Source: Phoronis australis (lineage: Eukaryota > Animalia > Phoronida). From it: a stretch of DNA of 64,000 nucleotides. The notes below the pieces were generated by a model. That model was not told the origin of the DNA. It saw nothing but the letters and a program-made list of their open reading frames with translations, and made no database searches. Below, piece after piece: positions 16,055 to 64,000 of this stretch (position 1 is its first letter; every line of letters begins with the position of its first letter). The stretch covers positions 260,727 through 324,726 of the forward strand of contig NMRA01000489.1 in assembly GCA_002633005.1 (NCBI GenBank). The letters run 5' to 3'. The position numbers were made by a program, and so were the translations under genes.

Positions 16055-16514
16055 TGTAGGTAATAGTCAACATTACATTGTAAGTTATAGTCAACATTAC
16101 AGTGTAGGTTATAGTCAACATTACATTGTAGGTTATAGTCAACATTGCACTGTAGGTTATAGTCAACATTGCACTGTAGGTTATAGTCAACATTGCACTG
16201 TAGGTTATAGTCAACATTGCACTGTAGGTTATAGTCAACATTGCACTGTAGGTTATAATCAACATTGCACTGNNNNNNNNNNNNNNNNNNNNNNNNNNNN
16301 NNNNNNNNNNNNNNNNNNNNNNNNNNNNNNNNNNNNNNNNNNNNNNNNNNNNNNNNNNNNNNNNNNNNNNNNNNNNNNNNNNNNNNNNNNNNNNTGTAGG
16401 TTATAGTCAACATTGCACTGTAGGTTATAGTCAACATTGCACTGTAGGTTATAGTCAACATTGCACTGTAGGTTATAGTCAGTACTACATTGTAGGTTTT
16501 AGTTAACATTACAT
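16055..16514. repeat. 24-bp minisatellite spanning an assembly gap (N at 16273-16394)
   Basis: Unit tgtaggttatagtcaacattgcac on both sides of the N run. True length unknown. Confidence 0.96.
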
Positions 16515-17242
16515 AGATGTGATTAACTGAGCTTGGAGAGAACTGCAAGATCGTTTGTTATTGCTTGAGGCAAAGCACTGCAAGTTCGCATTTATTCGCA
16601 TGGTATCTGGCAATAATAAACTGCCAGTTCCCATGCAAAAATAAAAATAACTTCTCATCTACATAAGGAACAACTTCAGACCAGTTTTATGCTTTTAGAG
16701 ATGCTATGTTTCAACAAAACCGTGAATATTCAAATTTGTAGCAAGCGCCACCTAGTGACTTGCTGGAGCACTGTGTGTACAAGTATAATCTGGAAAAGAA
16801 ACAATTTATAATTAAATTGCGGGTTTAAAAAACACCACAACTGATACGCTTAAAAACAAGTGTTGACACATAATAAACTTAATAATTCCAAATATTACGC
16901 AATCTTTATTTGATAGTGAAATAAATTAATAAAATATGTGCCTTGTTACATTAGTGTATTGAAATATTACCATACTGATTTACCTAAAAATAGTCTCACA
17001 AAACAAGACTTTCGCAAGATTGTAATGGTAACTGGTTCTCGGATGGTTTCTGGTACACCAGAAGACCCGGGGTTGTTTGTAAACTAGTACTTTGTTTGCA
17101 GATTCACCATTTTCAGTAGTCTGTACATCAAAGTTCTTTCACCGAATACAGGTACTTCATAGCTATTTTATATGTCAATTTAATTGTTTGTCTGCGCTCT
17201 GTACAAATAAGTGTGATTTCTAACATTTACCTCTGACTGTGG

Positions 17243-17529
17243 TAAACATTCTCAAATTTAGGGCAGTGAAAATTAACTTTTTTGCTCAATTTCTAAGCAT
17301 GTGCCCAATTTTAGAATTTGAAATCAATATTAATTGTCTCAAATTCAAGAATTACCTTCAGCAACAGACAACAAGACTTCAATATAAAATGCACCATTCG
17401 ATATTTGAGAAATAGGAAGAATACCAAAATTGCCCATGTCCCTAATCTTCAGAATCTAGAAAATTTAATTTCGTCTTGGATTCTGATGTCCCAAACTTAA
17501 ATTTGGAGACTTCACAAACTGGAGAATGT
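17243..17529 (-). mobile_element. MITE, diverged inverted copy of 43630-43961
   Basis: Ends aaacattctcaaattt / aaactggagaatgt. Internal similarity to the reverse complement of 43630-43961. Confidence 0.6.
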
Positions 17530-18198
17530 CATCCAAATTTAAACACAGAAATGCGTGCAACTAAAGAATAGCTAGAGTAAAAATTTAAAAGAAGTTTATG
17601 ATAAATTAATCTTTCTCATGATTTTGCCCGGAAATTTTGAAACAAATGAATTGATGAAAATTTTCTTGAGGGATCATTGTGCTTAGTAGACTCACATCAG
17701 TCTGTGACAAATAGGCTAATTTCATTGACTTGAATAATCCTAATTGGCAAGATTAATCACGTTAAAAGTGCAACCTAATAAATTCAAGCATAGATAATAT
17801 TACGCTAGCTTTTTAGGCTTCACTTATTCAACATTCATCATTAAGCTTGCATAACTTTGCTAGGAACGTGGCACAGGTACTTATTGTAGTGTATGAGCTA
17901 TGTTGTTACATGCGAAAGGTCAATCGCAGGTTAGGTGAGAAACTTGAGTCATTGAGCTTGGTGAGAGAGCAAGCGTGTATTGACTAGAGATCTTGTTTAT
18001 GCTTCCACAGCAATGGTTACCAAGAGACAAGAGTTTTCAAGCTTGGAATTGAATGTTGAAATGAGGGACTGGCCGAACAAGGTCATGGAAGGTTTTTTAT
18101 AAACAAGATTTCTGTTGTAATCCTAAGGTTTCTTTTTCAAGCTAATCAGACGATGGTTAGTAAAGGAGAAAGAAAATTCAAGCGTTGGAGATAAATAT

Positions 18199-19210
18199 CA
18201 AATGAATGCGCTCCGAGGAGCAACACTTGGCGAAATTAACAGAAAAGACGACGATAGAGATGTTACAGAAAAGACGACGATAGAAATGATGACAAAAAGG
18301 ACGAATATGACGATGATGATGGTGATGATGAACAATTCAAGTAATGATAACATTCACAAGACGAACAGAACATAAAGGCCAGACATCAGTAAGTATAGGC
18401 TACAGTCTCGAACGCCACTTGCCGAAATTAACTGAAAAGACGACGACGGAGATGAAAGCCCATTCAAAACTCTATCTAAATTGTTGGTATCGCCTAATTC
18501 CGTAAATTTTTCGAAGAAATGAAATTTTGAGTTTTTTTAAGAATTTCAAAGTCAAGTAACTCGAAAACGGTAAGTCTGAGAAAAAAATTGTTACAGGTCA
18601 GTTGAATGAGTATACTTCAAAGAATCCACATGCAAAAAATCACTTCTTTTTCTCTTCCTGTTTAAAATGGCACTCCAGCACGACTGAAAGTGGGTCAACA
18701 TACGCCAGATCCGCCATCTTGAAAGCAACTTCCGTTTTTGTTGGCTCTGTATAATAGCTTGTCAAGATATGAAACTAATACCTGCAAAATTTTGAAGGAA
18801 TTGGCCCGACAATGCGCCCTCTACAGAAGAAAACGTTTTTAGGCCAAAATCGAGGTGCGCATGCGCGATCACCGATATTTCCGCCATCTTTAAACGGAAG
18901 TAAACAATTTCTGGTATACATGTAGTGCACACCCGGTCCATTAGTTGTGATGATTTTCAGGTCTGTACGTAAAAAATTATAGCCTCCAGAAGCCTTTGAA
19001 TCTTAAAATGAAAACAAAATGGCCACCACAGCCGCCATCTTGGATCCGATTGTGACGAAAAACAATAGGCTTCTAGTACTTCCGGAACTACGTGTTCTAT
19101 GTAAATTTTGTGATGGTTGGATGAAAATTGCGACCTGTATCGTGCGAACAAACAAACAAAACAAAACAAACTTGATGGAAGAGCAACATACTTATTTCGC
19201 CAAGTAATAA
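18199..19210 (-). mobile_element. Helentron/DINE-1-like element, family 2, copy A
   Basis: Reverse complement of 45005-46127 along its whole length. Carries the ttcgccaagt subterminal repeats, gtttgttt microsatellite and terminal hairpin. Confidence 0.8.
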
Positions 19211-20221
19211 GGTGACGTACTACTATTTAGCTGGACTTACAATGCTCGGTCAAATTTAGCAACACATAAAAGTTCTGATCTTAAGTATTGTTGCTGTTTA
19301 ATTTATCAGAATGCTTCACTCAGCTCTCTGTCGGTGTAAAAGAAATCTTGCAAAACACAGAACAGATATCCTTGGTAATGTATTTATGGATAGACCAGAT
19401 GTCTATTATTTGCTATAAGTTATGCAAATTTTGAGAGTTGTAAATAATGAGTGTGACATTAGATGGCCAATTTGCTAACTGTATTGATTGTTGATAGCCT
19501 ATCAGGTTCTGATGAGATGTGTTGTCAGTCGGTCGTTTTCATCTGGTATTGGCTTCACGTGGGCTGGTGTGATGAATGTTGAAAACCGAATATGACTCTT
19601 ATACTCGTATAACCACACAAAAATGAAGAGTCCTTTCACTAAACTCAAATGTTTGAAAGTGACTTGTACAACAGAGTAAATTGTCAGCCATTTCAGTCAA
19701 GTTTCAACTCAGGAGTGAAATGAAGGATTAAGGAATCAATTGAAGATTGTTGCCTTTATAGCAAGGTAGGAAATAACATAGGAAATATAAACAATGATGA
19801 GATGCACGTCTTAATTACATATTCTATTTACGCATTAGTTTCAATAGCTTAATGCAACTGATAAATATATCTAATGGAATTAATGTTTGTAGATAGCCTG
19901 CTTTGTCCATTCAGGCTGAATGTGCATAGTCAAGTGATCTTAACCAACCAGGTGTATTTTGGTATTGTAGTCAACCGATATTTTTCTCATGTTTGGTGTT
20001 GTGCTGTTGATAATAATTTGCACAATTTTAATTAATCCTTTCTTTCTACATTTTCTTACATGTAAGTGACTTACTAAGACTTCACTAATTACGATTTCTT
20101 TAGAAGGTGCTATTTTCTTTAAGTTTAATGAGTCTTTGTCTAAAGGCCAGTGTTTCCAGTTGCTCACTTTATTGTGATTTTTTCGCATCAAAAAAATGTA
20201 ATGTAAAGGTGATTTTTAGGT

Positions 20222-20222
<1 letters not shown>

Positions 20223-20260
<38 letters not shown>
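20223..20260. repeat. (CA)19 microsatellite
   Basis: Read directly from the sequence. Confidence 0.98.
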
Positions 20261-20264
<4 letters not shown>

Positions 20265-20351
20265 TGTAAAAACTGTGTATGTATGTATGTGTGTGCCTTA
20301 TATGATGCCAATAAAATGGCATGAGCAAATTTTCCAACTCTCTGACTACTA

Positions 20352-20569
20352 CTTTAATAATAGTATGAGCAAAGCTCCGGAAATTGCTTTTGAATTATAT
20401 CCAGGTTTACTCTTATGCATTCATTCACCCCTAAGACTGAGCTCAGAGGAGTAGGAGACACCTTTCACCTTTGTGCAATGCTCGATTGTCAGCCAGTAAA
20501 ACCAGGATTTGAACCTAGGTCTCCCAAACAGGAGTCCGGAGCTCAAACCATTGAGCCACACTGACTACC
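20352..20569 (-). mobile_element. tRNA-derived SINE, copy A
   Basis: Minus-strand A box tggctcaatgg and B box ggttcaaatcc. Body shared with 42924-43136. Confidence 0.78.
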
Positions 20570-22076
20570 GCTATGTCCTCAGGAGCAATTTTATATTCTT
20601 GTTTTTGCCTCTGCATCTTTGGAGTTTTTTTACCGTTTTTTATGAAATTCAGCAGATATGCATCTTTTAAGGAGATGATGTCACCTTTTCTCATTTCTAT
20701 CTCATAGGCAAGCCTAAACAAACACTGCCAGGGTGTTACTTGGTGTTGTAGGTGGACATTTACCACTTGCGGTATGGCCTGGGTCTAGATGTTCTGTTTT
20801 TTTCTTTCTCAAATGTTGGCAGCTATGCATATTTTACAATTCAGTCCACAAAAGCTCACACTATGTATGGTGCTTGTTAATTCAAGACTTAAATTCACAA
20901 TACACACAAGTTACAGTTCAGCAATTCATGCTTTTGTCTTGATTGGTCTAGGGAGAGAATGCATAACTAATAGTGCTTCATCAAACCTTCATGATATGGC
21001 ACTGACAGTCCTTGACGCATACTAATTATAATCACTTGAATGGATGAGACGATGTAGACCCTGAGCCTGGTCATACCACAAGTGGCAAATGTCCTACCTC
21101 AATTTCTACCAAAGTTGTGGCTGAAGGTTGGCATATGTGTTACTATTGTGGAGACCGTGGCTTGTCTTGATATTTGGAAACATATGATTGCTGTGTCGTG
21201 TAGGGTTTTCTTTTGGTATGCATCAATGTTTACTTGTTACATTATTTGATGTGATTTCATGAAACTTAACAAGTGTCTTCTTTATTTTGAAGAAAGCCCC
21301 CTTGGTGTTGATTTATGGATAAATCTGATCAAGTAGTGTTTGTGGCACATCTTTGGCAACAGTGTCTTCCTTCCATGTCTGTGAAAGTTCTTTGATGGAT
21401 CCAGTCTTCATGAAATTTGACTTAAATATGCGTTCCTTTATGTGGAAGGAGGGCACATTAGATCAAACTACCCTAGAACTATAGAAATGGGCAACCCTAT
21501 CTTTACCATTTTTGATCATGGCTCACATCAATGCTAATCAGCATGATTCTGGTATATGCTGTTGCATTGTTTTGGTTTTCAGTGCATTTCACAATAAATG
21601 CTTTAGGAGATATAAGTTAGGTGTGAAGAGTTGGTTGATACAGTACATGGCTAGAATTAAATCAGACAAATACTGTTTCCCCATCATGACGGGTATTCTG
21701 TTAAGAGCAGAGCTCTGCTGATTACTGGCAATGATGCACTATTCCGGCCTCTAAATTCTACTGACTTGCAGAATGGTTGAGCCCAGCTCAATAATTCCCA
21801 TTCATTCTTGGTCACCAGGGATTCAGCCTACTCGATGAATTCTGGCTCGTCTTGTCTAAATGCTTTTGGCACGTACTGTAGTTTGCAGAAGCAAATGTGA
21901 AACCAACAGCACCGCAGGGAAGATACCATCTGCAAATTATATAGTTCTTTTTCCTAAAATGCCTAGGGGGCCACTCACTGATTTTGATTTATGGATTACT
22001 TTATGCTTTATATTTTCAGTATGATGAAACAAGTCGAGAGCCATCTAAGCAGGAAGTGATAGACATAGTGTGGACT

Positions 22077-22573
22077 ATGGTTGGCAATGAAAGCCAAGAA
22101 GCTGTCTTGAATTTTGGTTATGGAAACTCTTCAGACTGTTTTCACTGGCAGCAGGCACAGCACATTGTATTCCAACTCGCCAATGTTGTGTTCATGATAT
22201 CATTCCTTGCACCCAGTACATTTGCCTACCACATTCTGTTTCTGCGTGGTGTATCTTCCATTGGTTGTCTGATGATTGTCTTCTGGTCAACCATAGTCAC
22301 GTGTCTTCCAGACTACTTGGGCTGGAATGTAGCATTCCTTGCTGTTAACATGGCGCACATCTGTTACCACCTTTGTACAGCGTATCCAACCAGGTTTGAG
22401 CCAGAGATTGAAGACTTGTATAGAAGACTATTCAAGCCATTCGAGATGCCACGACTGACATTCTGTGAACTGTTGGAGCAAGGTGAAATCCACCAGATGG
22501 CCTCAGGTGATGTGTACGCTTCAGAGGAGGAATCGCCTTGTAGCGAGTCTTTGTCACTGCTGATATGTGGCAG
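22077..22573 (+). CDS. bves: Popeye domain-containing protein (BVES/POPDC family), coding exon 1
   Basis: Acceptor ttttcag|22020. ATG at 22077 gives MVGNESQEAVLNFGYGNSSDCFHWQQAQHIVFQLAN..., with two N-glycosylation sequons, three hydrophobic TM segments and the POPDC-type FEPEIEDLYRRLFKP and LSLLICGR motifs. Donor ag|gtatac, phase 2. The frame is open from 22020, so an upstream start exon is possible. Confidence 0.9.
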
Positions 22574-22986
22574 GTATACGTATGGCAAATAATGTCTGTC
22601 TTACAGTGTTTCTTTGGATTACAAAGGAGTTAGTGATGATAATCATCTAAGGCTAATGAAAGAACTGTTCCGGCGCGGAGTCATAATGGGCCCTGCATGG
22701 CTTCGCCCCTCCCTACAGGGAATATCTATATGGGAAAGCTTCCTGCGGAAAATGTTTTAAATTTTTATGTCTGAATGATACATTCTGTAGGCTATGAATG
22801 AGCACAGACAACAGATTGTTGATTGTTATATTCACTGATGGTATGAATATTGATATCGACATATCATTTAACAAATGATTGAAACTATCAGCTTTTTTAT
22901 GTTATAGTTCTTATCACTTGTTACATGATACAGTAAATATTCATATTATTTACAACTAGTTTTTTTATGTTAATGTTGGTTATTAA

Positions 22987-24283
22987 TTTTCATGTGCCCA
23001 CAAAAAATTTTGTTGTTGCATGTAGACAGCATTTTGTCGCTCTGTCCATTTGTCAGTACCTTATTTGCTTTTCCATTGGTCAGTGTGACAGATCATCATG
23101 AAATTTCAGGTACATTAGGTTACATGGTGGTTGTGTGTTGACACCAGTTGTTTTTTGTAATGATTTGACTATGGTGGCACCCTACATTGTCAATTTTTGA
23201 CATTGATAGTGATTCAATGAATTTTGCCAAAACTTGGAACAGATGTACATGTGTTGGGATTGGCTGGGTCTAGATGATTTTTGGGTGGATTTGACTATAT
23301 AGTTAGAGGCTGTACAGTTTTCAACACATGAAATTCTTTGTGTGTCACATATTTTGGCAAAACCTCGACTCAAAGATTTTTGACTGGGAAGCACAGTGTC
23401 ACCAATTGATTATCGGCCGGATTTAACGTACAGCGGAACCTCTTGTAGGCCATTTTAATTTTCACGAGGGACCTAGTACAGCTGAAAATTCAGTCAAGCC
23501 AAAACCCAACTAAATTTGTAAACTGAAGCACAAGTTTCAATTACCCCATTCAGCTGCCAACACAGTAGAGCGCCATCTGGTTGGGCTGCCAAAAGTCAAC
23601 AGGCATCAATTGTTTTATGACGTAATGAGGCGTCATAAAGCGATTACATAATAGGTGACCAAGTAGCCCAAGCAGCTGGACTGAGTTCAATGGGCTATGT
23701 GTTGGATGATCAAGTTTTATCTGGACAGGGTTCCTCATGAGCAAGACTTTCTTTGTCGGTCAGTTATTGTCAGAACAGTTTACCAGATTTTGATTGAACT
23801 ATTTATTGTTGTAGATGCAAGATGGGTATGCATGGGTATCAGTTAATTTTCGGATAGATTTGAATACTGTAGCACTGTCTACTATTTGGCATTTTAGTTT
23901 TTGACAAGATATTGCCTGTGTCTGTTGATTACAATCAAATTAAAGCTGTGCTACAGTTTTTCATGAAATTTTACACAAGGGCTTAGGACTGGGATGCTCC
24001 TACATCTTCATATAATAATTAGATGGATTGGACTGCCGTAGCACCTTCTATTGGCCATTTTAGTTTTTGACAAGTTATTGCTTGTCTGGTAATTGTAGTC
24101 AAAATAGATTGAAAAATTTCTTGATGGACCCCGACATTAAGAAGTGTATGGCAGTCAGTTGCTTCCTGCTTTGATATACTGGCCAAATTGTACATTGCAT
24201 GGTTGCATAAACATCCCTACAAGCATTATTACCATTTACGGTGCAGTCATGGATGCATTTCAACACTTTGTATTGTTCTAGTT
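22987..24283 (+). mobile_element. DINE-1-like family 1 relative in the Popeye gene intron (with a nested fragment at about 23430-23750)
   Basis: Start tttcatgtgcccaca and end gtgcagtcatggatgcatttcaacactttgtattgttctagtt. The nested segment gtttcaattaccccattc...gccatctgg recurs at about 49040-49100. Confidence 0.55.
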
Positions 24284-24573
24284 AAGTTGACTTCGGTGTA
24301 TACAATGTCATGAAGCATTTCCTAGGCTTAGATCTTAACTCAAACTGAGAATGGTTCCATTACGACTGCAGGCAATCGGAACATTTAGCAAATACACAAC
24401 TAAAAGTGATTACATAGTCGCTGTTCAGGCATTAATGACAACAATGCCTACAATTTGGGTGTTGATTTTGCAAGTATATTGCAGGGCAGCATAGTGGCAA
24501 CTGTGGTGGGTTCATCTGTACTCTATGTTGATTGTCACCTTCTTCAGTTTAGTGAATTATGTTTGTGTTTCAG

Positions 24574-24691
24574 GATAAAAGTCAGCTGTGAGAGCTTGTT
24601 CCTGCATTTTGTTGAGCCTGGTCAGTTTCTTGACTCTGTTGAGTTTGAAGCTCAACAGCTGTACTGCAAGGAACAACAACCGTTTTATCAG
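24574..24691 (+). CDS. bves: Popeye domain-containing protein, coding exon 2
   Basis: gtttcag|g acceptor completes Arg. Reads IKVSCESLFLHFVEPGQFLDSVEFEAQ...FYQ (FLDSxEF phosphate-binding cassette). Donor cag|gtact, phase 0. Confidence 0.9.
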
Positions 24692-24923
24692 GTACTGTAC
24701 ACAATGATGTTCATGTTGTTAGAACGTATGTTTAATATTGTGTTCCGGATGTCAACAGAGATTGGCCGGCTTTAATTACCCTATTCCCAATTCTCTGCAC
24801 CAGAAAACTGCAGATCTGCACTTTGGATTAGACAAACAGGAAACAATTTAATGCTGCACTAAAGTTAGTGTCAAATTATTTTATTTTGGTGTACACACTT
24901 TTACATGTCATAATTTATTCTAG

Positions 24924-25215
24924 GTTACTATAGCTGCTGTTGAGAAGAGTAAAATCATATCTTGGAAGTGTGATCACTTTAGGACTTACCTTTCTGTGAA
25001 CCCATTCATGGCTGCCATGTTCAATTGCATTCTGGGTAAAGATATAGCCAGCAAACTGTATCACATCCAGGAGTGGTTGATCAAAGACAACAAGCAGCTG
25101 ATTGGGCCCAGTGGGTCAGTGACTGGTGGGGTCAGAGGTTATAATAGCCAAAGGACTTACTGTAGTAATGACAATCCAGTCATAGAGACACGCATGAGGT
25201 TCACTGGACCGAGAG
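24924..25215 (+). CDS. bves: Popeye domain-containing protein, coding exon 3
   Basis: ttctag| acceptor. Reads VTIAAVEKSKIISW...MFNCILGKDIASKLY (conserved GKDIxxKLY motif). Donor ag|gtaat, phase 1. Confidence 0.88.
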
Positions 25216-25319
25216 GTAATTTATATACATGCTCTCGAGTATTAACTAAGGTAGAGAAAGTTTAAAATAGGCAGATATAGGACTTTGGTGGAGTGTTTGA
25301 AATTGCGAAATTTGCAAAT

Positions 25320-26980
25320 CAGGTGGAATAGGATACATGAAAATGTCCAAATTTGACTGACTTTGGAACATCTCATCGCATAAATGGCCAATTAAATTCA
25401 CACGAAAAGTGCCAGATACTGTTTATGCACTGTTCAAAAGTCTTAAGGAATTGTTTCACTTTTACATAAACAGTTATTGAAGATAGAACTGTTATCGTTA
25501 AAGAACTCAAAAAGTTGCACAAAACAAAACAAAACAAAAACAAAACGCAATGAACAGGTTTAGAAAATTGTACAGCGTTTTTGAGGTTTCGTCTTGAACA
25601 TATCAAACAAAATTTGGTCATGTCATTGATACCATTGCATTGCTATCAGACAAGAGTATGCCTTTCTTTTAAACTAAATTTGACTAAAATGACATGGCCA
25701 CACGACCCAATCAAGACTACATAGGACCGTATCAACAAGCCCAAGCATTTGACCAAATACCTACAGTCCGGAAGAATTAAACTGTGGGTAAAAGTATGTA
25801 TTTACTGAAAGTAGAAAGCCTGTAGAATTTGACATTTGATTTTATGCCAATCTGTGATTAATTGGGTCACGTGACCATATATTTTTAGTAAAACTTACCA
25901 ATGAAAAAGGAAACTCGGTATAATGTATGTTCATAGCAAAACAGTGATATTAACAACATGGCCAATATAAATGCTAAAGATGTACTCCCAAAAACGCTGT
26001 TAGTTTTCTGAAATATTGCAATATGTTTTACTTTTATATAACTTTTGAGTGTCTTGATAAAAAATCATGTACCTAGTCCTATTTTTGATAGCAGCCCTCT
26101 CACAAAATTGGAATATATTAAACACAATTCCTAAAAGCATAGTGGAGAACTGTGCGTAAAGCATAGCATGTAAAAGTTTAATGAATCTCATCGGTTATTC
26201 ATGAGATGTGATATTGTGAAGTTAGTCAAATTTGGACATTTTTTCTAGGGTCACACATAACCTTAATGATAGTTTGGTAATAAAGTAAAAAAATCAAATT
26301 CTACAGGATGTCTACTTTCAGATAAGATATACCTTAACCTTTACTTAGTAGTTTGCCCAATATTATTCAAGTTTGCCCAATATTATTCAAGTTTGCCCAA
26401 TATTATTCAAGTTTGCCCAATATTATTCAAGTTTGCCCAATATTATTCAAGTTTGCTCAATATTATTCAGGTTAGCCTAATATTATTCATGCTTTTTGGG
26501 CTTACCTTGCATAAGGTTATGTTGGACCCTAAATAAATGTCCCAAATTTCGCTAACTTCACGTCATCATATTTCACAAACTGCGACCGATCGGATTCATT
26601 TCAAGTTTTTAGATACCATGCTTTATGCGTTGTTCTCCTAAACAGTTGGGAATAATTTGTTTTTAAAATGTTCCATTATGCATGAGAGGTTTTCAAAAAT
26701 GCGACTTTTAGTGATTTTTTTGAAAAATCAAAATTTACATGAAACGAAAATGAAATGATTATTTAGAAAACTGTAACAATGTTTTTGCGATTTCATCTTG
26801 AACATGTATATCAAACAATATTTACCCATAAGTTCATGATACAATTGTTTTTGGCTTATGAAAATTGCACCAGTTTCTTTTTTGGCTAAATTTTACTAAA
26901 ACACACAGTCATGTGACTCCAGTTAAAGGGAGATTGGTCAAACATCAAATTCTACAGGACTTCAACTTTCAGAAAATGTA
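25320..26980. mobile_element. Cluster of three Kolobok-like MITE copies in alternating orientation
   Basis: The end motif aggttatg..gaccctag/aaaatgtccaaatttg occurs forward at about 25330 and 26512 and reversed at about 26220-26265. Confidence 0.55.
26351..26489. repeat. 20-bp minisatellite, 7 copies
   Basis: Unit gtttgcccaatattattcaa. Confidence 0.96.
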
Positions 26981-27619
26981 TAATATTATTAATATATTAT
27001 ACTACGGTAAAGTCGCGTGATTTTCGGACGGCCCGCCCGTATAGTTTTGAAGATATTAGGGCAAATACATGGACTTGTCACTAAGGTCCTACACTAAACC
27101 TTGAGGTTCCTCACTATAGCTTGGCTCACCTTACTAGCTGTGTGGCATGTCTTCTTAGTATTTTAAAGCACTTTAGTGTACCACACGAGCTACATTGTCA
27201 TGTGCAAACAGGACATGAAATGTGTTTAGTTTTGATCTCTAATCGGTTAGAAAACTAGTTTGGTGAAGTAATTTTCCATTAGATTGCGAGCTTGAATTAT
27301 GTTAATGGGCAGCCGTTTTATTCAAGCATGCGTGGCAATGGTCGCCAAGAGGCAAGATTTTAAAAGCATAGAATTCAATGATGAAACAAAGGCTGGTCCA
27401 ACAAGCTTATTCAGTATTGTTTGATAAGTCTGATTTAACCTTACTCATCGGTAGTCTCTTTTTCAAGCTAACGAGCAATGATTAACAATGGAGCAAGGAA
27501 ATTCAATCTTGAAGAAAATGTCAAATAACATGGCCATACTATTAAGCTTGAGCAAATTTGGTCAAATTTAGTCACTAACCTAACGGTTGAGTATGGACTT
27601 ACATTTTCTGTCATTACAG

Positions 27620-27696
27620 GGGAGGCGTACTGGTTTGGTCAAAAACAACAAAGTCATCTTTCGCTGTCGGATACTGCATTTGAAACCAGCGTGTGA
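27620..27696 (+). CDS. bves: Popeye domain-containing protein, probable last coding exon
   Basis: ttttctgtcattacag| acceptor, phase-compatible with exon 3. Reads GEAYWFGQKQQSHLSLSDTAFETSV, stop TGA at 27694-27696. Confidence 0.7.
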
Positions 27697-30600
27697 ATCC
27701 CGACGATGGGTTATATGTCTATGCAATCCATGTACGTGAATTGTATTCCACCGGTATTATCTGTGATACATTTTGCAGGAGAATTCATCAGTATATCCCA
27801 ATGACAACACTACGTTATTTATACAGTCACCTTATTCACGCAGTCGCCATGTTACTAAGAGCCTCCTTTTAGGATTTAAAAACAAATGCACCCTGCGCTT
27901 AGTCACAGCACAAAACGTGCTTTTTTGCCTGTCTCGTTATATTTATGTCTCAATTGTATTGTACCTAAAAAGAGGCTCTTTTTAAAATTACGATTGCATG
28001 AATAAGGTCTATTGATGTCTCATGACAGTAAAATGTTCATGACCTGCTATAATCTGTTATCTGTGCATTCAATCTGTTACCGTTTACAAACTATTTTAAT
28101 ATCATTAAAAACATAAAATTTTATGCTCTGTTAGTATACTACGTGTGACACTTTGGCTCAGTCATCAGACAGTGAGCTAAGACTGCATTACACAGAATAC
28201 CACTTTCTGAGTTAGTGGTGACCAAAAGCTTCTTCCTGAAATTGTACATCGTCCTCTCGGAGTCTGTGGTATACCCACAATGCTGCTGTGGGGCACTTGG
28301 TCCGCAACTGTACACTGCTGCCACGTTTATCACCATTTTGCATCAGTGTACATCATCAGTTTTACAACCAAAAAACGCACTCTACGATCCGTGGTAAAGC
28401 AATAGAATTTGAGGCATATCAGTAAAGGAATAACAGTTGCAATACGCATTAGGGCGAGCACAGGCTGATAGCTACGAACTGAACTGTTTGCCTCATTGCC
28501 AAGTGAATCGCAGCTGAGCTCAGGCATGTCAAGGCGAGAACAACAGAGTTAACTAGCAGGTTGTTCATCCAACTGTATTTTAACCTTGGCAAGAGCTGTC
28601 TGCTGAGCTGATTCATGTAAGGCAGATTGCTGAGCTCACAGCAATCTGTCCGACTGTGCTCACCCTCATTTCCCTTTTGTTCCGTTGTATTTAACTGATT
28701 TTTGTCGTTCAAATTATGAGATTCGTTTTTCAATGACGAATTTAGTTTTTAATAGACTGCACTGTCTAAAAAGGTTGGGGAAGAATGATGCCACGAACTG
28801 CCAACTATTATTTTTGGCAACTATCTGTTCCCCAATTCTCAAACATGTCCAGGCACTGTGGCTAATGGCTATTGTAGTGGTTGCCAGTTGGGGAGGCTAG
28901 ATGTTGTAGCTGATGTGTTCGAGGGAACTGCGTCTATGACTGTTTACTTTTTGTTTGCTCAACAGAGATGTTGGCTGTCAATAATAAACCAATAGTATTT
29001 TAGAATGCATGAAGCCAACCGTGCACTATATGACAGCGAGGAATGAGATTACAGGATTACAGGCATATTTTTGTTACCAATTTCAATTCAGACAAAGGTC
29101 AAGGGTCAAGTGTGGGAACACCTTTCTTGAAAGAGCAACTATGTCTTGTGAAGTAAAGACAGTTGTTTTTAACATCAGAATATTAATTGTTTTACGGCAT
29201 GTCAAGTGGTCTGAATAAAAAAAAAACATTTTTAACAAGAGTGGGAGTCACAGCAGCTTTTAACCAATGACATTATGAAGTTGAATATTTATTAACTTTC
29301 AATTCAAATTTTAAGTGGTGTTTATACATTCAAGTGAATAAATGAAAAGCAACGACATGGCAACAGCTTCATAATGAAGTAGTTCTGAAAAAAGTTGACA
29401 AAATCCCTACTTCTTGAAAATTGGCAAAGCTTAGTGGCAAAACATTTGATGTCTTGCTGTTGGCGGATATCCTCACTATGATGGAATGGCAAAAATTTGA
29501 AAAAAAAAATTGTCAACTTTTTTGAAAACTACTTGAATCAATCAAGACTGTTACAGATATGTACAAACTGGCAGCAATGCTTCCATGCAAGTCTCGTTAA
29601 AGCCTACTTTGAAAGGTACTTGTAACAGCAAAACTTAAGTCTCTTTAAATTAAAAACACATTATGGTGGAACAGTAAAATTTTATTCCATCAAAAAATTT
29701 CTAGAATATGATCAGTTGAAAACTTTGTATAGTATGGCTGTCATTAAAAACCAAGATGACATTTTGAATAATTTTGGCAGTGCAGCATTTGGAAAAACAA
29801 AAAAATTGAACACTACTTTTGTTTGAATTCAAGGAAACTATACGGAAACGCATATTCAGCATCACCAATGCCAAAAATTGACCTTATCACAAGCTCAGAG
29901 CCCTAGCGAAATATCGAGAAGCTAACAACTTTTACCTGGCAACGTGTTGTTTGTCAGATAAAATGGCAGCTTGGAAACTAAGGGTGTCAAGAATGCTGCG
30001 TTCTGATTGGTCAGTTATTGGCAAATGTAATGAATGGTTATACAAAGTTATCGCTTTACTTGAAACCCGGAATATTTAATGGTTTTCTATTAAGACCCCT
30101 ATTAAATGCAGCTACTAAATTTAATCTTTGGTTCCATGCTCTCTTATATCAAGTGAAATTAACTCCAAATATCACACAGCAGGACTTCAATTTCTAAAGT
30201 TTAATTGCCAGTCTTTCATAGTCACATTTTGACATCAACAATCTATGTGATACTACGACATTCTACTGGAACGTTCTACACAGTACTCCAGTCATGGTAG
30301 ACTATCTAAGGTGTTACTTCAACATTATAGAAAACAACAAGACCCACACAGTAGGAGTCCAGGTATAAGCACTGTAGGAAGGTCAAATTTCAGAATATAA
30401 TTGAGATGCCTCACACTGGCACAAACAACAACTTGAAGTTTTCACCTATTCAACATACAACATGGCTGACGAGTCAATTCTATTTTATCTAATTTCTTCT
30501 CAAAAAAGATAAGGAAAATTTAGTCTGTTGCTAACATGGGTTTTACTGCGTAGACAGACGTATGTCATAAAACATAGTAAATTTTCCAATTTTTTGCATG

Positions 30601-40091: not shown

Positions 40092-40690
40092 CCTTTTCAA
40101 CACTGCTTGTAGTGCATGTGCAGTGACATAGCTTGTGACTGGTTAAACCTTTTCAACACTGCTTGTAGTGCATGTGCTGTGACATAGCTTGTGACTGGTT
40201 AAACCTTTTCAACACTGCTTGTAGTGCATGTGCAGTGACATAGCTCATGACTGGTTAAACCTTTTCAACACTGCTTGTAGTGCATGTGCAGTGACAGAGC
40301 TTGTGACTGGTTAAACCTTTTCAACACTGCTGGTAGTGCATGTGCTGTGACATAGCTCGTGACTGGTTAAACCTTTTCAACACTGCTTGTAGTGCATGTG
40401 CAGTGACATAGCTTGTGACTGGTTAAACCTTTTCAACACTGCTTGTAGTGCATGTGCTGTGACATAGCTTGTGACTGGTTAAACCTTTTCAACACTGCTT
40501 GTAGTGCATGTGCAGTGACATAGCTCATGACTGGTTAAACCTTTTCAACACTGCTTGTAGTGCATGTGCAGTGACATAGCTCGTGACTGGTTAAACCTTT
40601 TCAACACTGCTGGTAGTGCATGTGCAGTGACATAGCTCGTGACTGGTTAAACCTTTTCAACACTGCTGGTAGTGCATGTAATGTGACATA
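40092..40690. repeat. 56-bp minisatellite, about 10.7 copies
   Basis: Unit ccttttcaacactgcttgtagtgcatgtgcagtgacatagcttgtgactggttaaa. Confidence 0.97.
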
Positions 40691-42495
40691 ATGGAAACGT
40701 GCACGCTTGCCAATTCATCATGTCACTCCCTGACATAACTAATTTGGTTGTTAAATGTTCATATTTCGAGATAAACTATAAGAAGTGAGGGATAATTTAG
40801 CGGTTTATCTAGACTAACCTGTAACCAGACTGGAAGCAGACGTAAGATATGAGCACACCCAAGACTGCATCTGATTGCCATATTGCTGGCAGTCTTATCA
40901 ACTACCTTATACAGCTTTAGATTACAATGACTTTTCTGCATACCACAGCAGTCGTCAAAAAGAATACATAGTCACTAAATAGTATAAACGTAACAGATTA
41001 CTGTTCGCAAAATGTGAATAGCAATTTTTCGGTTTTCGACAATTTGGAAGTATAATCAATCTTATGAAGGCTGCATTACATGTAGACACTTCAAAATGAA
41101 GTGTGTGTCCTTGGCATATTTTACATTTACCCAACTAGAGGCCTATTAAACCTGACATGCAACAATATATACTATACTCCCTCAGGCACCAGCATAGCTT
41201 GGAAGACACTGTCTTATAACTAATACTTGATCCAGCTATCAACATTAAAAAAGGAAGGAACTAAGGGACATGAAATCAAAAAACATGCTTACAGTTGGTA
41301 CATATACCTAATGGTATCTTTCCCTAAATGCAGTGACCGTAAGCACCATTTTTAATTTTACATCCTGCAAATACAGAATTTGTTAAATGCAATACACTTT
41401 TCATTGTTCAGTCTTTATTCCGTTACGTTCGTACTTTCGGAACAAAACTCTACTCTCAAAAGTATGAACGTAACGGAATAAAGACTGTGAACAATGAAAA
41501 GTGTCATGCGTTTAACAAATTCTGTATAACCGAAAACTTGCTCCCGAAGTACAGCCAATCCTTCAAATAATGGAAAAAATACCTCAACTTGGAACAATTC
41601 TATTTTTCACAGGCTTTGCATGTCGCTGCAAATGCTGAAAATTTTACCAAATTTTGTTGGTGATAGCTATAATGTACAAACTGTGATAAAAGCAAAGTAA
41701 AATTTTAAGAAAACAATATTTTTGATGAGAAATTACACAAATGAAATTCATGCGATGGATACTCAAACATTATAGGCCTCGAGATTTTCACGAGATAAAA
41801 ATCATGTCTGGATTTCATGTTGATCGATCGAAAAATGCAATTTGTAGCATCCATACAAACAAACAAAAACTTCACGACAAAGCAACATACATGCCTTTAG
41901 AAAAATTTCATTTCGCCAAGTAAAAACCTTCAAATGCAGTCAAATGGTCAAATTTGTGCCATAACAAAAATTGTCGGAGGACCTTAATAAGCCAACGAAC
42001 ACAAGAGTATCATGTAATCAGTGTATGTTTGAATCCATCAGACACTCGCATGAATGAAGCTTAACGTGCGAGTAGGTTGGTGTAATCTATGAATGGGTTC
42101 AAAGGCTTGATGTTGAGTTCAACAGTCGTTGTCTTCCCCAGGCCTCATGATAATTCAGCTCTGTTTATTTTGTCAATTATAATCAGAAGCATGTTGTTGA
42201 GAATCTGTACCAGTTGCAGTATGCTTGCAAAGGATTTCAGTCATATTGGTTTTGGACTTGTGGGACTTCACAACGGTAACTATGGTGGGCGTGGCCTGTT
42301 TTTCGGAACTAACCATCATATCCCAAACTGAAAAAGTTTTACCTTTTTAACTGCTTTGGTCAGTAATTGCTTCCTTCTCTTATAGCCAACCTTCAAAATA
42401 CACTGCACACTAATGAAACCCTCCAAGCACACTGAACTCACCCCATCAGGGACCCTAAATGTATCAATAGACACTGCTGCATGCTTTCCACTCAC

Positions 42496-42731
42496 CTGAT
42501 TCACCACTATTATTGCATAGTCTAGTCTCTGCTTCTGCAGCAGATCATGCACATTATGTAAGAAGACCCGCAAGTGTGCTTCCCTATTCCTGTATGGGAT
42601 GACTATGGCTACTTTGTGCTCTGCCTTGCAGTTCTTTGGTCTCCACCGCCCCCCGGGCTCCAGTTCTGGATGTAGCTGGGCCAGCTCGTCCAGGCTTGGC
42701 ACATTCTCAGTGAATACTTTGATACGACCAA
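42496..42731 (-). CDS. bre-4: GT7 glycosyltransferase, coding exon 2
   Basis: Reads VGRIKV...LEPGGRWRPKNCKAEHKVAIVIPYRNREAHLRVFL...LQKQRLDYAIIVVNQ (GGxWxPxxC and PYRNR motifs). Splice sites ttgtag| and |gtgagt. Confidence 0.95.
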
Positions 42732-42923
42732 CTACAACACAAGTGGAAAGTTATTAAATGAACATTTTCATGTGATCGCTTGTAGCTTAAGTCACAGGAC
42801 TGGAGCGTTGTTAAGACAAAAAAAGGTTTAGTTGGTTTGGATCTCTACCTGGACTCTTTTTGAGGTCTGTGCTAACTGACTAAAGGATAAAAAATAGCCT
42901 GTCTGCAATTTCAGCAAAGCTTT

Positions 42924-43136
42924 TTTTAATAATTATGAACACAGCCCCAGAAACAGCTTTCAGAATCCAGGTTCTCATTCACTCCCTTACACACATTCTC
43001 TAGTAAAACCGAGCTCAGAGGAGTAGAAGACACTTTTGTGCAATGTTTGATTGTCTGCCAGTAAAGCCAGGATTTGAACTCGAGTCTCCCGAACGGGAGT
43101 CCGCAGTTCAAACTACTGAGCCACACTGTCTCATCC
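42924..43136 (-). mobile_element. tRNA-derived SINE, copy B
   Basis: Minus-strand tggctcagtag and agttcaaatcc boxes. Shared gagctcagaggagtag...tttgtgcaatg body and AT-rich tail. Confidence 0.78.
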
Positions 43137-59660: not shown

Positions 59661-60017
59661 TTACAACTCTGAGATTAGATTCTGCTGAATTTGTCAAAGC
59701 ATCATTCTTAATCTCAGTCTTAGAATTCATGAGCGCTCTGAAGATGACTAAAATCAGTAGGCCTACATGATTCGCCACATTCTTGTTTAATGCAGTGGGA
59801 TGTATTTTCCAGTATTTTTGATAACTTTTTGAGGCCAGCATACCATCAAATTGCCACTCTTTGGAGGTGGTATGTTCAAGCAATGCATACAATGATATAA
59901 TAATTATAATATTATAATAAGACCAACATCTCAAAATGTCCGTGAATAACAAAATGACATTTTGTCTAGGTGTGAACTCAGCTCATCTTGCAACCTGACT
60001 TAGAAATTGGAATATGT

Positions 60018-60555
60018 TGTTGTAGATGTGCTTCCGGTGAATTATATGAGCCTCTGTTAGCTACTCGCTAACGGGCAATTCCCTATTAGCTGAATGGTTA
60101 GCACGCTTGCCGGTTTTATGGGGATCGCGGGTTCGATCCCCGGGTCGGGTGATCTCGGCTATTACAACAAATGGCGTAGTCGGCAAACGGATGATCTACC
60201 GATGAAGCACTGCCAACTAGTACCCACGGACCTCGGGACGGCGCGCGTGGAAGGTTCCAGGAGTCAAGGACCTGTATGAGAGACTACCTTGTGTTCACCT
60301 GTGTTGTGGTGGTAAAGGTACCAAGGGACGTTGATGACCTGTATGCGAGACATCCTGGTGTTCACCTTCCTGTCGCGTGCTCGTTCCGTAGGAAAGGGGG
60401 GAATGTTGTAGATGTGCTTCCGGTGAATTATATGAGCCTCTGTTAGCTACTCGCTAACGGGCAATTGCCTATTAGCTGAATGGTTAGCACGCTTGCCGGT
60501 TTTATGGGGATCGCGGGTTCGATCCCCGGGTCGGGTAATCTCGGCTGTTACTACA
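60018..60555 (+). mobile_element. Terminal-repeat retrotransposon in miniature (TRIM) with tRNA-like LTRs (Helenus-like)
   Basis: Two 152-bp direct repeats (60018-60169 and 60404-60555, 4 mismatches) bounded TGTTGTA...TACAACA. PBS tggcgtagtcggca at 60172-60185 is complementary to the tRNA-Ser 3' end. PPT aggaaaggggggaa abuts the 3' LTR. Flanks atgt/aagt. No coding capacity. Confidence 0.93.
60080..60150 (+). promoter_or_regulatory. tRNA-like Pol III internal promoter inside the 5' LTR (second copy at 60466-60536)
   Basis: A box tagctgaatgg (60087-60097) and B box ggttcgatccc (60130-60140). D- and T-arms can fold; the anticodon arm is degenerate. Confidence 0.8.
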
Positions 60556-61379
60556 AAGTTATCATTTTCTCGCAACACTAAAGAGATGTAATTTGTAGAA
60601 TGTTTCTTATTGCTACTGTGGTAAGACGACGAATTTGAGCCCTTTTTGATTCAGTTAATTAGGTTACACATTTCAGTTTTGCTTTTTAGTGGAGAAAGAA
60701 CAACTTTAAGTTGAACTTGAAGCCTTGGATAAGCTGTTAAGTGCTGGGAACAATGTCTGCAAACGGTCGTCAGTTATTTGGTTCAGCCATGTCTGTTTGG
60801 TTGCCTCCGGCTGCTGTAGATATCAGGTAAATAAATTAAAACTATGGTATGTGGTAAATAAGATATGTAGTCAGATGTGAATGGCTACTATTAGCTCTAG
60901 CCCATTTGATTATTTAATAAAAAAATGTTTTTTGAATTCTATCACCAGAATTGAGTTACAATTAGTTTTGGTAATTAATTATTCCATTATCTAAAGAAGG
61001 ATAGTCTGTTAATTGGTATATTAGCTTGAATGGTATGATTAATCAGGCACAAGATTTTTTTGGCTATTTTAAATAATAATTAGTCAACCAGCAGTGTTAT
61101 ATTATTTGATGTCCACGTGAATACTGTCATAACTTTCTGACTGTATGCTCTGCAAAAAGTTAATTGCTTTTAGGATACCGAAAAATTAATTATGTAAATC
61201 TTTCCTGGGTATCTAGAATTTGGTATTTCATGATATCATTTACTCTCTAAGACATTTAAATACAAATTTCATGACAGGCCCGTGTCCAAAATAGACCACT
61301 TGTAGGTTTCTCAACTGAGCAGCGGAAGTGGGACAAAATCGCCATCACCTTGTGATTACCTCTCCCAAGGTCTAACCTT

Positions 61380-62050
61380 ACAGGTAGAAAATCTGCATGA
61401 GGTCTTACAAACCCCAGGTGAATTCCTGCTCACACTGTGCAGTAGTGCTTAGCGCTTGGTCATCAAGTGAAGTGTGACAAAAATCCTCAATGCCTCTTCC
61501 TTGCTGTTGTCTAATTAGTGAATTGCCCAAATTACCAAAGACGATGCATTTGAAAAATTGCTCAATTTCATTATATAATCAAATGTAGCGAGTACAAATT
61601 TAATCAGACAACAATTTGACACAATTTATTTCTATGAACTTTTCTTCGCCTCTACATCTGTCTTTGCAATTCTTTCTTTCATGCTTGCAGTGATCTGAGA
61701 CAAGTGCCAGACCACCAGGAAGTGTTTGGTCATGAGTCTACAGACCAGAGCATTGTCATTGAGATATTGGAATATGTTAATGAGCCTGATAAAGAAGCTG
61801 TCAGGTTAGTTTCCTCTCCAGCAAAATTTGTGCCGGTCCATCCTTGTGCGTATGCTCTATGTGAGCATTCACTGGGTTGATTGTGTTAACTTGTAAAAAT
61901 GCTTGTGGAATCGGTCCAAAAGTTCACACTTTTCGATCTGTGTACTAAATCTGCACACTGGTACTCGAATATTTATGTACCAGTGTATAGCAAAAATACC
62001 TGGGCCATGTAACTTATACTTAACTATCATAACTTGACTATCTAGATGGA
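61380..62050 (-). pseudogene. Possible decayed Crypton-type tyrosine recombinase
   Basis: Ordered minus-strand fragments ELLDRFHKHFY, SIRTRMDRH, TKH/PGGL and LHSVSR resemble the DUF3504/Crypton motifs LDxxLxxFY, SIRAGIDRH, TKNHPGG and NHSxRAT. Heavily frameshifted. Confidence 0.4.
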
Positions 62051-62460: not shown

Positions 62461-62878
62461 TTACGGTTACGTAGGACCTCTTCAACAAGTCTGTGTTCAT
62501 TCCGCCAAATGTCTACAAAGGTAGTGTAGTATACGTTTTCAGAAAGTGAAAAGCCTGTAGTACTTGAGGTTTGACTTCCTACCAACCTGCCTTTGACTGA
62601 GTCATGTGACTGAGTCATGTGACTGAGTCATGTGACTGAGTCATGTGACTGAGTCATGTGACTGAGTCATGTGACTCATTTTTAGCAAAAAATAATGGTA
62701 CAATAGCACGTGCGTCCCGTCTTTGAAAGTCCTCAGTTCGTCGTTTTAAAAACAATTCTCTAAGGATTTTGGAGAACAGTGCATAAAGGTATATCTTATC
62801 TGATTATCAATTTATGAAATATGAGGTTCCAAATTAAGCCACATCAGGACATTTTTCTAGGGTCCTATGTAGCCTTTA
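62461..62878. mobile_element. Kolobok-like MITE (same family as 25320-26980)
   Basis: TIRs ggttacgtaggacc / ggtcctatgtagcc. The end ggacatttttctagggtc is shared with 26235-26262. Confidence 0.65.
62594..62678. repeat. 13-bp tandem array, 6.5 perfect copies
   Basis: Unit tgactgagtcatg. Confidence 0.97.
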
Positions 62879-62927
62879 GAATATGGTATTAATAAGGAAA
62901 TACTGATATCAGTTGATATCAATATAC

Positions 62928-63049
62928 AGGTTATCCCACATACATAGGAATACTACTGCCATATCCTATCGAGAATTCAGTTCATCTGGGAATGTCCCAA
63001 CGAGACCGAAGGATATCGCAGTAGTATTCCTATGAATGTGGGATAACCT
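62928..63049. repeat. 122-bp palindrome / long hairpin
   Basis: 40-bp arms aggttatcccaca...catatcct / aggatatcg...tgtgggataacct with 2 mismatches. Confidence 0.92.
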
Positions 63050-64000
63050 ATTTATCCCATATATTTGGACTTACTTGCATCATCGGGGCACTAACTTGTT
63101 GCCATGTGATATGGTTTGTTGTCATATGACATCATATGTATGCAAAATACGGAACCAAAACTGGTTAAGCTACAAGACAGTCTGTGAAAGTGTTGAATAA
63201 CCAGTCAAGTTTTGTTTTGTAATAAAATCATTGGAATTTTTAGATTGTGAAATATACAAGTTAAAGCTGCTTTGAACCATTCAATTATATCAAAAGTTTG
63301 TAGGAAACTTAGAAACAATCCATCTGGTAAATTTTAAATTAAAAATTGACATTCCCTGAACTGAGTTGTCTGCAATAGAAACATTTCCCCGTGTTGATCA
63401 CGGCATTGGAAAATAACGGTGGAAATTGTGCTGATTTGCAAAACTTGAGGTAAGGACTATCGCAATGTAGAAGTTATATGCCACGGCTGGCGACGGAGAG
63501 TTGAACGCTGTGAGCAGATGATTGCTTCAGTAAAAAACACATTCTCATTATTAGGACTTGATTTCTTGTAAAGACCTTAGATCCCAGGGTAGATGTACTG
63601 TATGCATCCATAACGAAACATTTTTGTTGGATTTGAATTAGATTTTGGCAGATTTTACTAGCCGGTGACCTTACTCAATTTGACCTATTTACATCTATGA
63701 TGACCCAGATTGAAACTTCAGCGAAGCCCAAAAATAGCCCCCTGATCACCGTGCGTCGTAATTTTCATCGGTAAATCTTTTCTGGTTTTAGAGCAGTAAA
63801 ACTGCTTTTTCAGGAACGATGCCTTGAATTACTGATTTAGGTAACCCAACTGAGCCCAATAAAATTTGGCGTTGTACACACGAATTTGCTCCACCACCAG
63901 ACTGCACACCTACCGTGAAATACGGCATCTACAATGATATACAGATTGACTCTACTTTCCCGTATATCACGGTTGAATACGTCACATACACAATGGCCAT

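What the first reader, a model, noticed from the sequence alone, without database searches (positions are those of the whole stretch)
60018..60555. Intact miniature LTR retrotransposon whose LTRs carry a tRNA-derived Pol III promoter
Seen in sequence: two 152-bp TG...CA LTRs differing at only 4 sites, a 14-nt PBS 2 nt after the 5' LTR, a PPT directly before the 3' LTR, 4-bp flanks matching 3/4, and a tRNA-like segment with intact A and B boxes in each LTR. Established: the PBS is the reverse complement of the metazoan tRNA-Ser 3' end including CCA, and plant Cassandra TRIMs embed 5S rRNA in their LTRs. From memory (to verify), tRNA-bearing TRIMs with 4-bp TSDs have been described in animals as Helenus. 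Inference: this is a young SINE/LTR hybrid, transcribed by Pol III but mobilised in trans by a Gypsy-type partner, and may be an undescribed family in this host.
Basis: partly seen in the sequence, partly recalled or inferred. Interest (0 to 1): 0.85.

Follow-up and report, generated by a model that had tools for sequence, protein, structure and literature searches.

The report
Helenus mini-retrotransposon with palindrome signal
This is a real, many-copy, gene-less jumping element of an invertebrate animal whose two end repeats carry a decayed tRNA copy, a kind named Helenus in 2024; a self-pairing 10-12-letter site just before its tRNA-like promoter, shared with fish and bivalve relatives, likely helps its RNA pair up for copying.

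Summary
The 538-bp element has two 152-bp TG…CA LTRs (4 differences), a 14-nt tRNA-Ser PBS, a 14-purine PPT, and an A+B box pair in each LTR (1 of 20,000 shuffles). DNA runs show hundreds-fold depth and many different flanks at the exact LTR ends. It fits Helenus (Kojima 2024); no listed family matches, so it is probably a new family. The scan noted Helenus before on other DNA (38 notes, at least 12 genomes). The 4-bp TSD (ATGT/AAGT) is inconclusive. RNA-seq shows only read-through; Pol III use and a Gypsy partner remain inferred. It lies 133 bp before the ATG exon of a Mog1 gene. Added here: each LTR has a 9-bp hairpin, then a self-complementary palindrome centred 8 nt before box A. By eye, 51 of 76 non-wasp animal Helenus LTRs in Kojima's data have a palindrome there, in over 20 different sequences; his text does not mention it. 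It likely marks a pairing signal at the RNA ends. A U3-dependent hairpin abutting the LTR's only T4 may explain termination in the 3' LTR alone. New member of a known kind; interest 0.4.

The parts
60018..60555 (+). Complete non-coding TRIM (Helenus type), 538 bp
   Evidence: no long ORF; many copies with discrete ends
60018..60169 (+). 5' LTR, 152 bp
   Evidence: loose read ends at 60018 and 60169
60404..60555 (+). 3' LTR, 152 bp, 4 differences from the 5' LTR
   Evidence: loose contig ends at 60404 and 60555
60053..60075 (+). U3 hairpin, 9-bp stem and 5-nt loop (copy at 60439-60461); in the full 3' LTR it can refold into a longer hairpin 60420-60499
   Evidence: a similar hairpin seen by eye in many Helenus LTRs
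60459..60470 (+). Self-complementary palindrome: 10 nt perfect, 12 with G.U, centre 8 nt before box A. The 5' LTR copy (60073-60084) is imperfect at 60081
   Evidence: only perfect palindrome of 8 nt or more in the element; background 0.35% strict, 3.9% lenient; most RNA reads have G at 60081
60080..60152 (+). Degenerate tRNA-like segment (copy at 60466-60538), not a functional tRNA
60087..60097 (+). Pol III box A (copy at 60473-60483)
60130..60140 (+). Pol III box B (copy at 60516-60526)
60114..60117 (+). Only T4 run of the LTR (copy at 60500-60503), at the anticodon position; candidate weak terminator
60172..60185 (+). Primer-binding site complementary to the tRNA-Ser 3' end with CCA
60269..60367 (+). 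Internal 32-bp direct repeat (60269-60300, 60336-60367; 88%)
60390..60403 (+). Polypurine tract
60014..60017 (.). Left flank ATGT; right flank AAGT at 60556-60559; candidate 4-bp TSD, 3 of 4
   Evidence: one contig reads T at 60014
60689..60826 (+). Host context: ATG-bearing exon of a Mog1/RANGRF-like gene, next exon 61691-61804; the element lies 133 bp upstream of its splice acceptor, in sense orientation
   Evidence: stranded reads, loose ends at 60689 and 60826; Pfam Mog1 E=7.5e-13

Best explanation
This is a complete, many-copy, non-coding LTR retrotransposon of the Helenus kind that is likely transcribed by Pol III from the tRNA-derived boxes in its 5' LTR, likely primed by host tRNA-Ser, and likely copied and integrated in trans by an unidentified Gypsy element. 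Shown: the anatomy, the many copies and the discrete ends. Inferred: Pol III starts about 13-17 nt before box A (near 60070-60074; usual tRNA-gene geometry, recalled), so the RNA begins with the self-complementary palindrome. It reads through the weak T4 at 60114, as T4 is nearly non-functional without an adjacent hairpin. It copies U5, PBS, the internal region and PPT, and then U3 of the 3' LTR. U3 is transcribed only there, and with it the RNA folds into a long hairpin whose base abuts the second T4 (60500), making that one the likely stop. [quoted passage not shown] The palindrome would pair two RNAs (a dimer for packaging) or the two ends of one RNA (strand transfer). My odds: Helenus-type TRIM about 0.95; Pol III makes the template about 0.7; palindrome acts by RNA pairing about 0.5; U3-dependent termination at T4 about 0.3.
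For: Anatomy. Multicopy: summed contig depth over the internal region is 15,767-28,730 against 40.7-49.8 on the flanks in X1, with the same pattern in X2. 1,561 records were laid in X1 (259 at 99% or more). Loose ends fall exactly at 60018/60404 and 60555, from 13-24 contigs per listed row, with flank agreement 0.38-0.43, meaning different flanks. Box consensus holds in the listed common variants (60138 C>T, 60142 G>A). Kojima 2024 defines Helenus by these features and links animal families to Gypsy by PBS and 4-bp TSD. Palindrome: perfect in the 3' LTR, homodimer -16.4 kcal/mol. By eye in Kojima's DataS1 (six motifs searched, four found), a palindrome of 10 nt or more (G.U pairs or one unpaired centre allowed), centred 7-8 nt before box A, is present in 18 of 18 chordate (one with an ambiguous base), 30 of 51 bivalve, 3 of 3 nemertean, 0 of 3 Lingula and 0 of 1 ctenophore families. 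The sequences number over 20, and departures from perfect pairing are mostly G.U on the RNA strand; lenient background is 3.9%. Ty1 dimerises through 5' palindromes (PMC6844567, abstract). Termination: 60404-60499 folds at -32.1 kcal/mol (18 of 1000 shuffles as good) and closes at 60499, while RNA from the predicted start folds no better than shuffles. A hairpin next to T4 makes it a moderate terminator (Xie et al. preprint, section 17).
Against: No Pol III start was seen. In RNA runs X6 and X7 reads lie on both strands, about 70% run on into unlike sequence, and the only listed pile-up is 5 of 17 molecules at 60061; this fits passive read-through, although such libraries are poor at short Pol III RNAs. 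The TSD matches 3 of 4, or 2 of 4 in one contig. No autonomous partner was found, as no genome is held. The T4 may be a plain relic of a tRNA-Lys(TTT) anticodon. Several related families (e.g. Helenus-1_CGi, LTR-11_DR) have no T4 in the LTR by eye, so the T4 model cannot be general. The long hairpin (z -2.3) excludes the short U3 hairpin that looks shared between families. The palindrome tally is by eye, the families are related, 25 of 76 lack it, and wasp and fungal families were not tallied. This copy's 5' LTR palindrome is imperfect (-4.2 kcal/mol).
Confidence: 0.8

Rival explanations
1. An ordinary Pol II TRIM whose LTR once took up a tRNA-SINE head; the boxes and the palindrome are passengers.
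For: RNA reads look like Pol II read-through. The tRNA fold is lost. Kojima states that Pol III function of Helenus is not validated. A tRNA-SINE family exists in this genome.
Against: Both boxes are intact at tRNA spacing while the arms have decayed. Common variants keep the box consensus. The same selective retention is reported across Helenus.
Confidence: 0.15
2. The palindrome is not an RNA pairing signal but a short 5' hairpin, a DNA-level site, or a by-product of fold-back during reverse transcription at the RNA 5' end.
For: It can fold alone as a 3-4-bp hairpin (-2.6 kcal/mol). By eye, 11 of the 51 cases have one unpaired central base. 25 of 76 families lack it.
Against: In the 40 even-centred cases the central four letters are themselves self-complementary, which a hairpin does not need. 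The sequence changes while the symmetry stays, unlike a protein site. G.U pairs are common, whereas fold-back copying would give perfect pairs (by eye).
Confidence: 0.35
3. A local duplication or assembly artefact: two SINE copies placed side by side.
For: The TSD is imperfect, and a scaffold joint lies 420 bp upstream (N at 59598).
Against: PBS and PPT sit at the exact canonical places. The internal region is itself high-copy. Read contigs run from both unique flanks 26-30 letters into the LTRs, just under the tool's 31-letter bar.
Confidence: 0.02

Closest known systems
Helenus (TRIMp3), Kojima 2024, Biology 13:119, PMC10886601 (main text parts 1-6 of 6 read; supplement parts 1 and 5-11 of 11 read, parts 2-4 only term-searched; figure images not seen)
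   Same: Short non-coding TRIM, tRNA-derived segment with boxes A and B in both LTRs, tRNA 3'-end PBS, PPT, size within 311-1263 bp, probable 4-bp TSD as in animal families.
   Different: No listed family has LTR 152 / internal 234 / total 538 or this PBS. The hairpin-plus-palindrome module is not mentioned in the text. The host class is not determined.
Mytilid Helenus-2 families (Helenus-2_MyGa, -2_MoPh, -2_LimFor) in Kojima's DataS1
   Same: tRNA-Ser-primed, LTR 141-156 bp, long internal part 226-268 bp, hairpin plus palindrome before box A; Helenus-2_MyGa starts with the same 8 letters.
   Different: Different PBS after TGGCG, different palindrome letters, and by eye no long shared stretch; not aligned by program.
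Cassandra TRIM of plants (Kalendar 2008 not held; seen through Kojima's introduction and passages of PMC7215508)
   Same: Pol III promoter inside the LTRs; transcription starts in the 5' LTR and ends in the 3' LTR with a short R (18 bp).
   Different: 5S rRNA-derived, plant, and experimentally shown to be Pol III transcribed.
biv-TRIM, Satovic 2019, PMC6934838 (parts 1-2 of 5 read)
   Same: TRIM of bivalves.
   Different: TDRs 202-218 bp, internal 77-80 bp, no clear PBS; not this family.
Ty1 PAL1/PAL2 dimer signals, Gumna 2019, PMC6844567 (abstract only)
   Same: Self-complementary palindromes near the RNA 5' end of an LTR retrotransposon.
   Different: Shown by experiment in an autonomous Pol II element; here only predicted.

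Membership tests
Helenus | TRIM under about 1 kb with two LTRs and no coding capacity | tested here: met
   538 bp, two 152-bp LTRs, no long ORF
Helenus | tRNA-derived segment in the LTR with box A (TRGCY..YGG) and box B (GGTTC) | tested here: met
   (1 of 20,000 shuffles); ARAGORN only at relaxed threshold
Helenus | PBS complementary to a tRNA just inside the 5' LTR | tested here: met
   14 nt to the tRNA-Ser 3' end
Helenus | PPT before the 3' LTR | tested here: met
   60390-60403
Helenus | 4-bp TSD (animal families) | tested here: inconclusive
   3 of 4 here, and a contig differs at 60014; paired flanks of other copies not obtainable
Helenus | Interspersed multi-copy family with discrete LTR ends | tested here: met
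   depth and loose ends in DNA runs X1 and X2
TRIMp3 | Transcribed by Pol III from the LTR | not testable with these tools
   RNA-seq shows read-through only
Animal Helenus | Gypsy partner with a matching PBS | not testable with these tools
   no host genome held
A named Helenus family of Kojima's list | Matching size, PBS and sequence | tested here: not met
   Table S1, Fig S2 and motif searches; line breaks can hide a motif
biv-TRIM | TDR 202-218 bp, internal 77-80 bp | tested here: not met
Cassandra / Ajax | 5S rRNA-derived segment in the LTR | tested here: not met
   no Rfam 5S match

The most novel reading that the evidence does not exclude
Most non-insect animal Helenus families, from coelacanth, sturgeon and carp to bivalves, ribbon worms and this host, form one ancient lineage. 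It is defined by a hairpin plus a self-complementary palindrome at the Pol III start: the palindrome is the R-region pairing signal for RNA dimer formation or strand transfer, and the U3 structure, transcribed only in the 3' LTR, turns a weak T run into the terminator. This would contradict the proposed separate origins in fish and molluscs, and would explain how one LTR sequence starts Pol III at one end and stops it at the other.
Probability: 0.4. Interest if true: 0.65.

Novelty: new member of a known kind. Interest (0 to 1): 0.4.

Why it matters
As a family it is one more Helenus. The added value is a testable cis-signal. Kojima notes that it is unknown how TRIMs depend on their partners and that Pol III use by Helenus is unvalidated. 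A symmetry-conserved, sequence-variable palindrome at the predicted RNA ends gives a concrete candidate for packaging or strand transfer, and a character that may join fish, bivalve and nemertean families. This copy's two LTRs differ naturally in the palindrome, so they can be compared without engineering.

Tried and rejected
No host genome was held, so copies, TSD pairs and a partner could not be searched. Sequencing runs: no RNA holder listed; RNA runs of the same species label were laid instead. A metagenome scan with the PBS region gave 11 loci, all chance matches of 19-26 nt. Rfam and default ARAGORN found no tRNA in the LTRs, so a functional tRNA is rejected. Self-priming by the LTR's tRNA-like part was not tested; Kojima found no such complementarity in Helenus. 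Two word-index protein searches for host lineage found nothing. A full search gave a chiton (46%) and an octopus (41%) protein as the closest named invertebrate relatives of the POPDC exon among the top 10 clusters looked up, with a salmon cluster (31%) ranked between them and 7 clusters unnamed: too distant to fix the class. The upstream exon of the Mog1 gene was not found in the window. Kalendar 2008 was not held. Earlier scan notes: none by sequence, place or relatives, and none holding all the palindrome words. biv-TRIM was rejected on size.

Full report
Observation. The element spans 60018-60555. Its LTRs (60018-60169, 60404-60555) are 152 bp, start TG, end CA and differ at 4 sites, JC distance 0.027. 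The 234-bp internal part starts AA and then a 14-nt PBS (60172-60185), holds a 32-bp internal repeat, and ends in a 14-purine PPT (60390-60403). The PBS letters equal the start of a human tRNA-Ser template oligo in PMC3299991 (one passage), so they are the complement of the tRNA-Ser 3' end with CCA. Each LTR has box A and box B 43 nt apart. In the window only one other such pair exists, a tRNA-SINE head with the same spacing, and 1 of 20,000 shuffles gives a pair. The tRNA body is decayed: no Rfam hit and no default ARAGORN call. There is no long ORF. The flanks ATGT/AAGT match 3 of 4. By hand arithmetic this is about 6% by chance, and one contig of run X1 has T at 60014, so the TSD is suggestive only.

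Is it a family? No host genome is held, so public runs were laid on it. In DNA run X1 the summed contig depth is 15,767-28,730 over the internal region and up to 188,558 over the LTR, against 40.7-49.8 on the flanks. X2 shows the same pattern. The tool warns that this is no copy number; it points to the order of hundreds of copies. Of 1,561 records laid in X1, 259 are at least 99% alike, 479 are 95-99%, 527 are 90-95% and 296 are under 90%. Loose ends fall exactly at 60018/60404 and 60555 with flank agreement 0.38-0.43, meaning many different insertion sites with discrete ends. Contigs run from both unique flanks 26-30 letters into the LTRs, just under the tool's bar for bridging. Only 40 of 229 variant rows were shown; among them the box consensus is kept.

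Expression and context. RNA runs X6 and X7 have reads on both strands of the element; about 70% run on into unlike sequence, and no start near 60080 is listed. That is what read-through of many copies in host transcripts looks like, and it neither shows nor excludes a Pol III RNA. Stranded reads define an exon at 60689-60826 spliced to 61691, encoding Mog1 (Pfam E=7.5e-13). 17 reads in X8 carry 5' sequence before 60689 that is not in the window, and sequence is missing at the N at 59598. The element therefore most likely sits in a 5'-UTR intron, 133 bp before the acceptor. Among ten clusters looked up, the closest named invertebrate relatives of the window's POPDC exon are chiton (46%) and octopus (41%) proteins, with a salmon cluster at 31% and seven unnamed. 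The host is probably a lophotrochozoan; its class was not determined.

Comparison with what is known. Kojima 2024 (PMC10886601; main text read in full; supplement parts 1 and 5-11 of 11) defines Helenus as TRIMs with a tRNA-derived LTR segment. Animal families have 4-bp TSDs and Gypsy-like PBSs, and Pol III use is unvalidated. This element meets every sequence criterion except the TSD, which is inconclusive. No listed family has its sizes or PBS. Motif searches of the supplement gave 0 hits for seven of the ten motifs taken from the element; three 8-letter motifs gave 5, 4 and 1 hits in other families (line breaks can hide hits). The nearest in plan are the tRNA-Ser-primed mytilid Helenus-2 families. 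biv-TRIM differs in size. The scan holds 38 earlier notes on Helenus-like elements in at least 12 other genomes and none on this sequence.

What is added here. Directly upstream of box A each LTR has a 9-bp hairpin (60053-60075) overlapping a palindrome centred 8 nt before box A. In the 3' LTR it is the only perfect palindrome of 8 nt or more in the element (10 nt, 12 with G.U). The 5' LTR copy differs at 60081, where most RNA reads have G (36 of 41, 15 of 18, 27 of 27, 19 of 19). I read Kojima's consensus LTRs by eye, allowing G.U pairs or one unpaired centre. A palindrome of 10 nt or more, centred 7-8 nt before box A, is present in 18 of 18 chordate families (one with an ambiguous base), 30 of 51 bivalve, 3 of 3 nemertean, 0 of 3 Lingula and 0 of 1 ctenophore families: 51 of 76. 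Three more bivalve families have 8 nt. Examples are GGGTTAACCC, GAAGATCTTC and GGGAATTTCCC (3, 2 and 6 hits). Over 20 different sequences occur, usually after a similar hairpin. The same lenient rule is met at 3.9% of window positions. Families that lack it mostly appear to keep an intact acceptor stem. Wasp families showed no such palindrome on reading but were not tallied, nor were the fungal ones. The tally was not computed, and related families are not independent. Kojima's text has no 'hairpin' or 'palindrom', a library search for Helenus + TRIM + palindrom gave 0 papers, and TRIMp3 in this sense appears only in his paper among 8 listed. His figure images were not visible and might show the region.

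Mechanism. By usual tRNA-gene geometry (recalled), Pol III would start 13-17 nt before box A, so the RNA would begin with the palindrome and U3 would be copied only from the 3' LTR. The LTR's only T4 lies between the boxes (60114, 60500). T4 is nearly non-functional unless a hairpin is adjacent (Xie et al., bioRxiv 2021.08.27.457903, abstract and section 17). RNA from the predicted start folds no better than shuffles (733 of 1000 as good), while RNA that includes U3 folds to -32.1 kcal/mol (18 of 1000) with its base at 60499. This suggests read-through in the 5' LTR and a stop in the 3' LTR, giving an R of about 45 nt (Cassandra's is 18 according to Kojima). A palindrome at both RNA ends could pair two genomes, as Ty1's 5' palindromes do (PMC6844567, abstract), or join the ends for strand transfer. 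Against this: the T4 may be a relic of a Lys(TTT) anticodon; some related families have no T4; the long hairpin excludes the short shared one; and none of these steps has been tested.

Verdict. A real Helenus-type TRIM and probably a new family: a new member of a known kind. Interest 0.4, lifted by the shared hairpin-palindrome module, which is testable and was not found in the searches named above.

Noticed in passing
window 20353-20566 and 42925-43131 (- strand): Two copies (74% alike) of a tRNA-SINE. The 'tRNA-Arg' called by ARAGORN and Rfam at 20492-20567 is its head, not a tRNA gene.
   Followed up: partly
window 60465 / 60165 (loose ends in RNA runs X6, X7): An expressed locus seems to hold only the LTR part from the centre of the palindrome to near the LTR end (19-36 reads per end, uniform foreign flanks). 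It may be a truncated LTR or a SINE-like relative; unexplained.
   Followed up: no
window 60689 (loose end in X8): The 5' sequence spliced onto the Mog1 ATG exon is absent from the window: a missing exon in a gap or upstream, or a trans-spliced leader.
   Followed up: partly
window 59598: The single N is a scaffold joint with missing sequence; read contigs continue with other letters on both sides.
   Followed up: partly
Kojima DataS1, Ajax LTRs: By eye, the Ajax LTRs also carry a GGAATTCC-like palindrome and a tRNA-type box A ahead of the 5S part, which hints that Ajax derives from this Helenus lineage.
   Followed up: no
window 21945-25265 (+), 42316-42750 (-): Exons of a POPDC/BVES gene and of a beta-1,4-galactosyltransferase (GT7) gene.
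   Followed up: partly
window 40092-40690 and 16055-16513: Tandem arrays of about 56-bp and 24-bp units.
   Followed up: no
window 62744-64000: A cluster of other high-copy repeats in the Mog1 intron.
   Followed up: no
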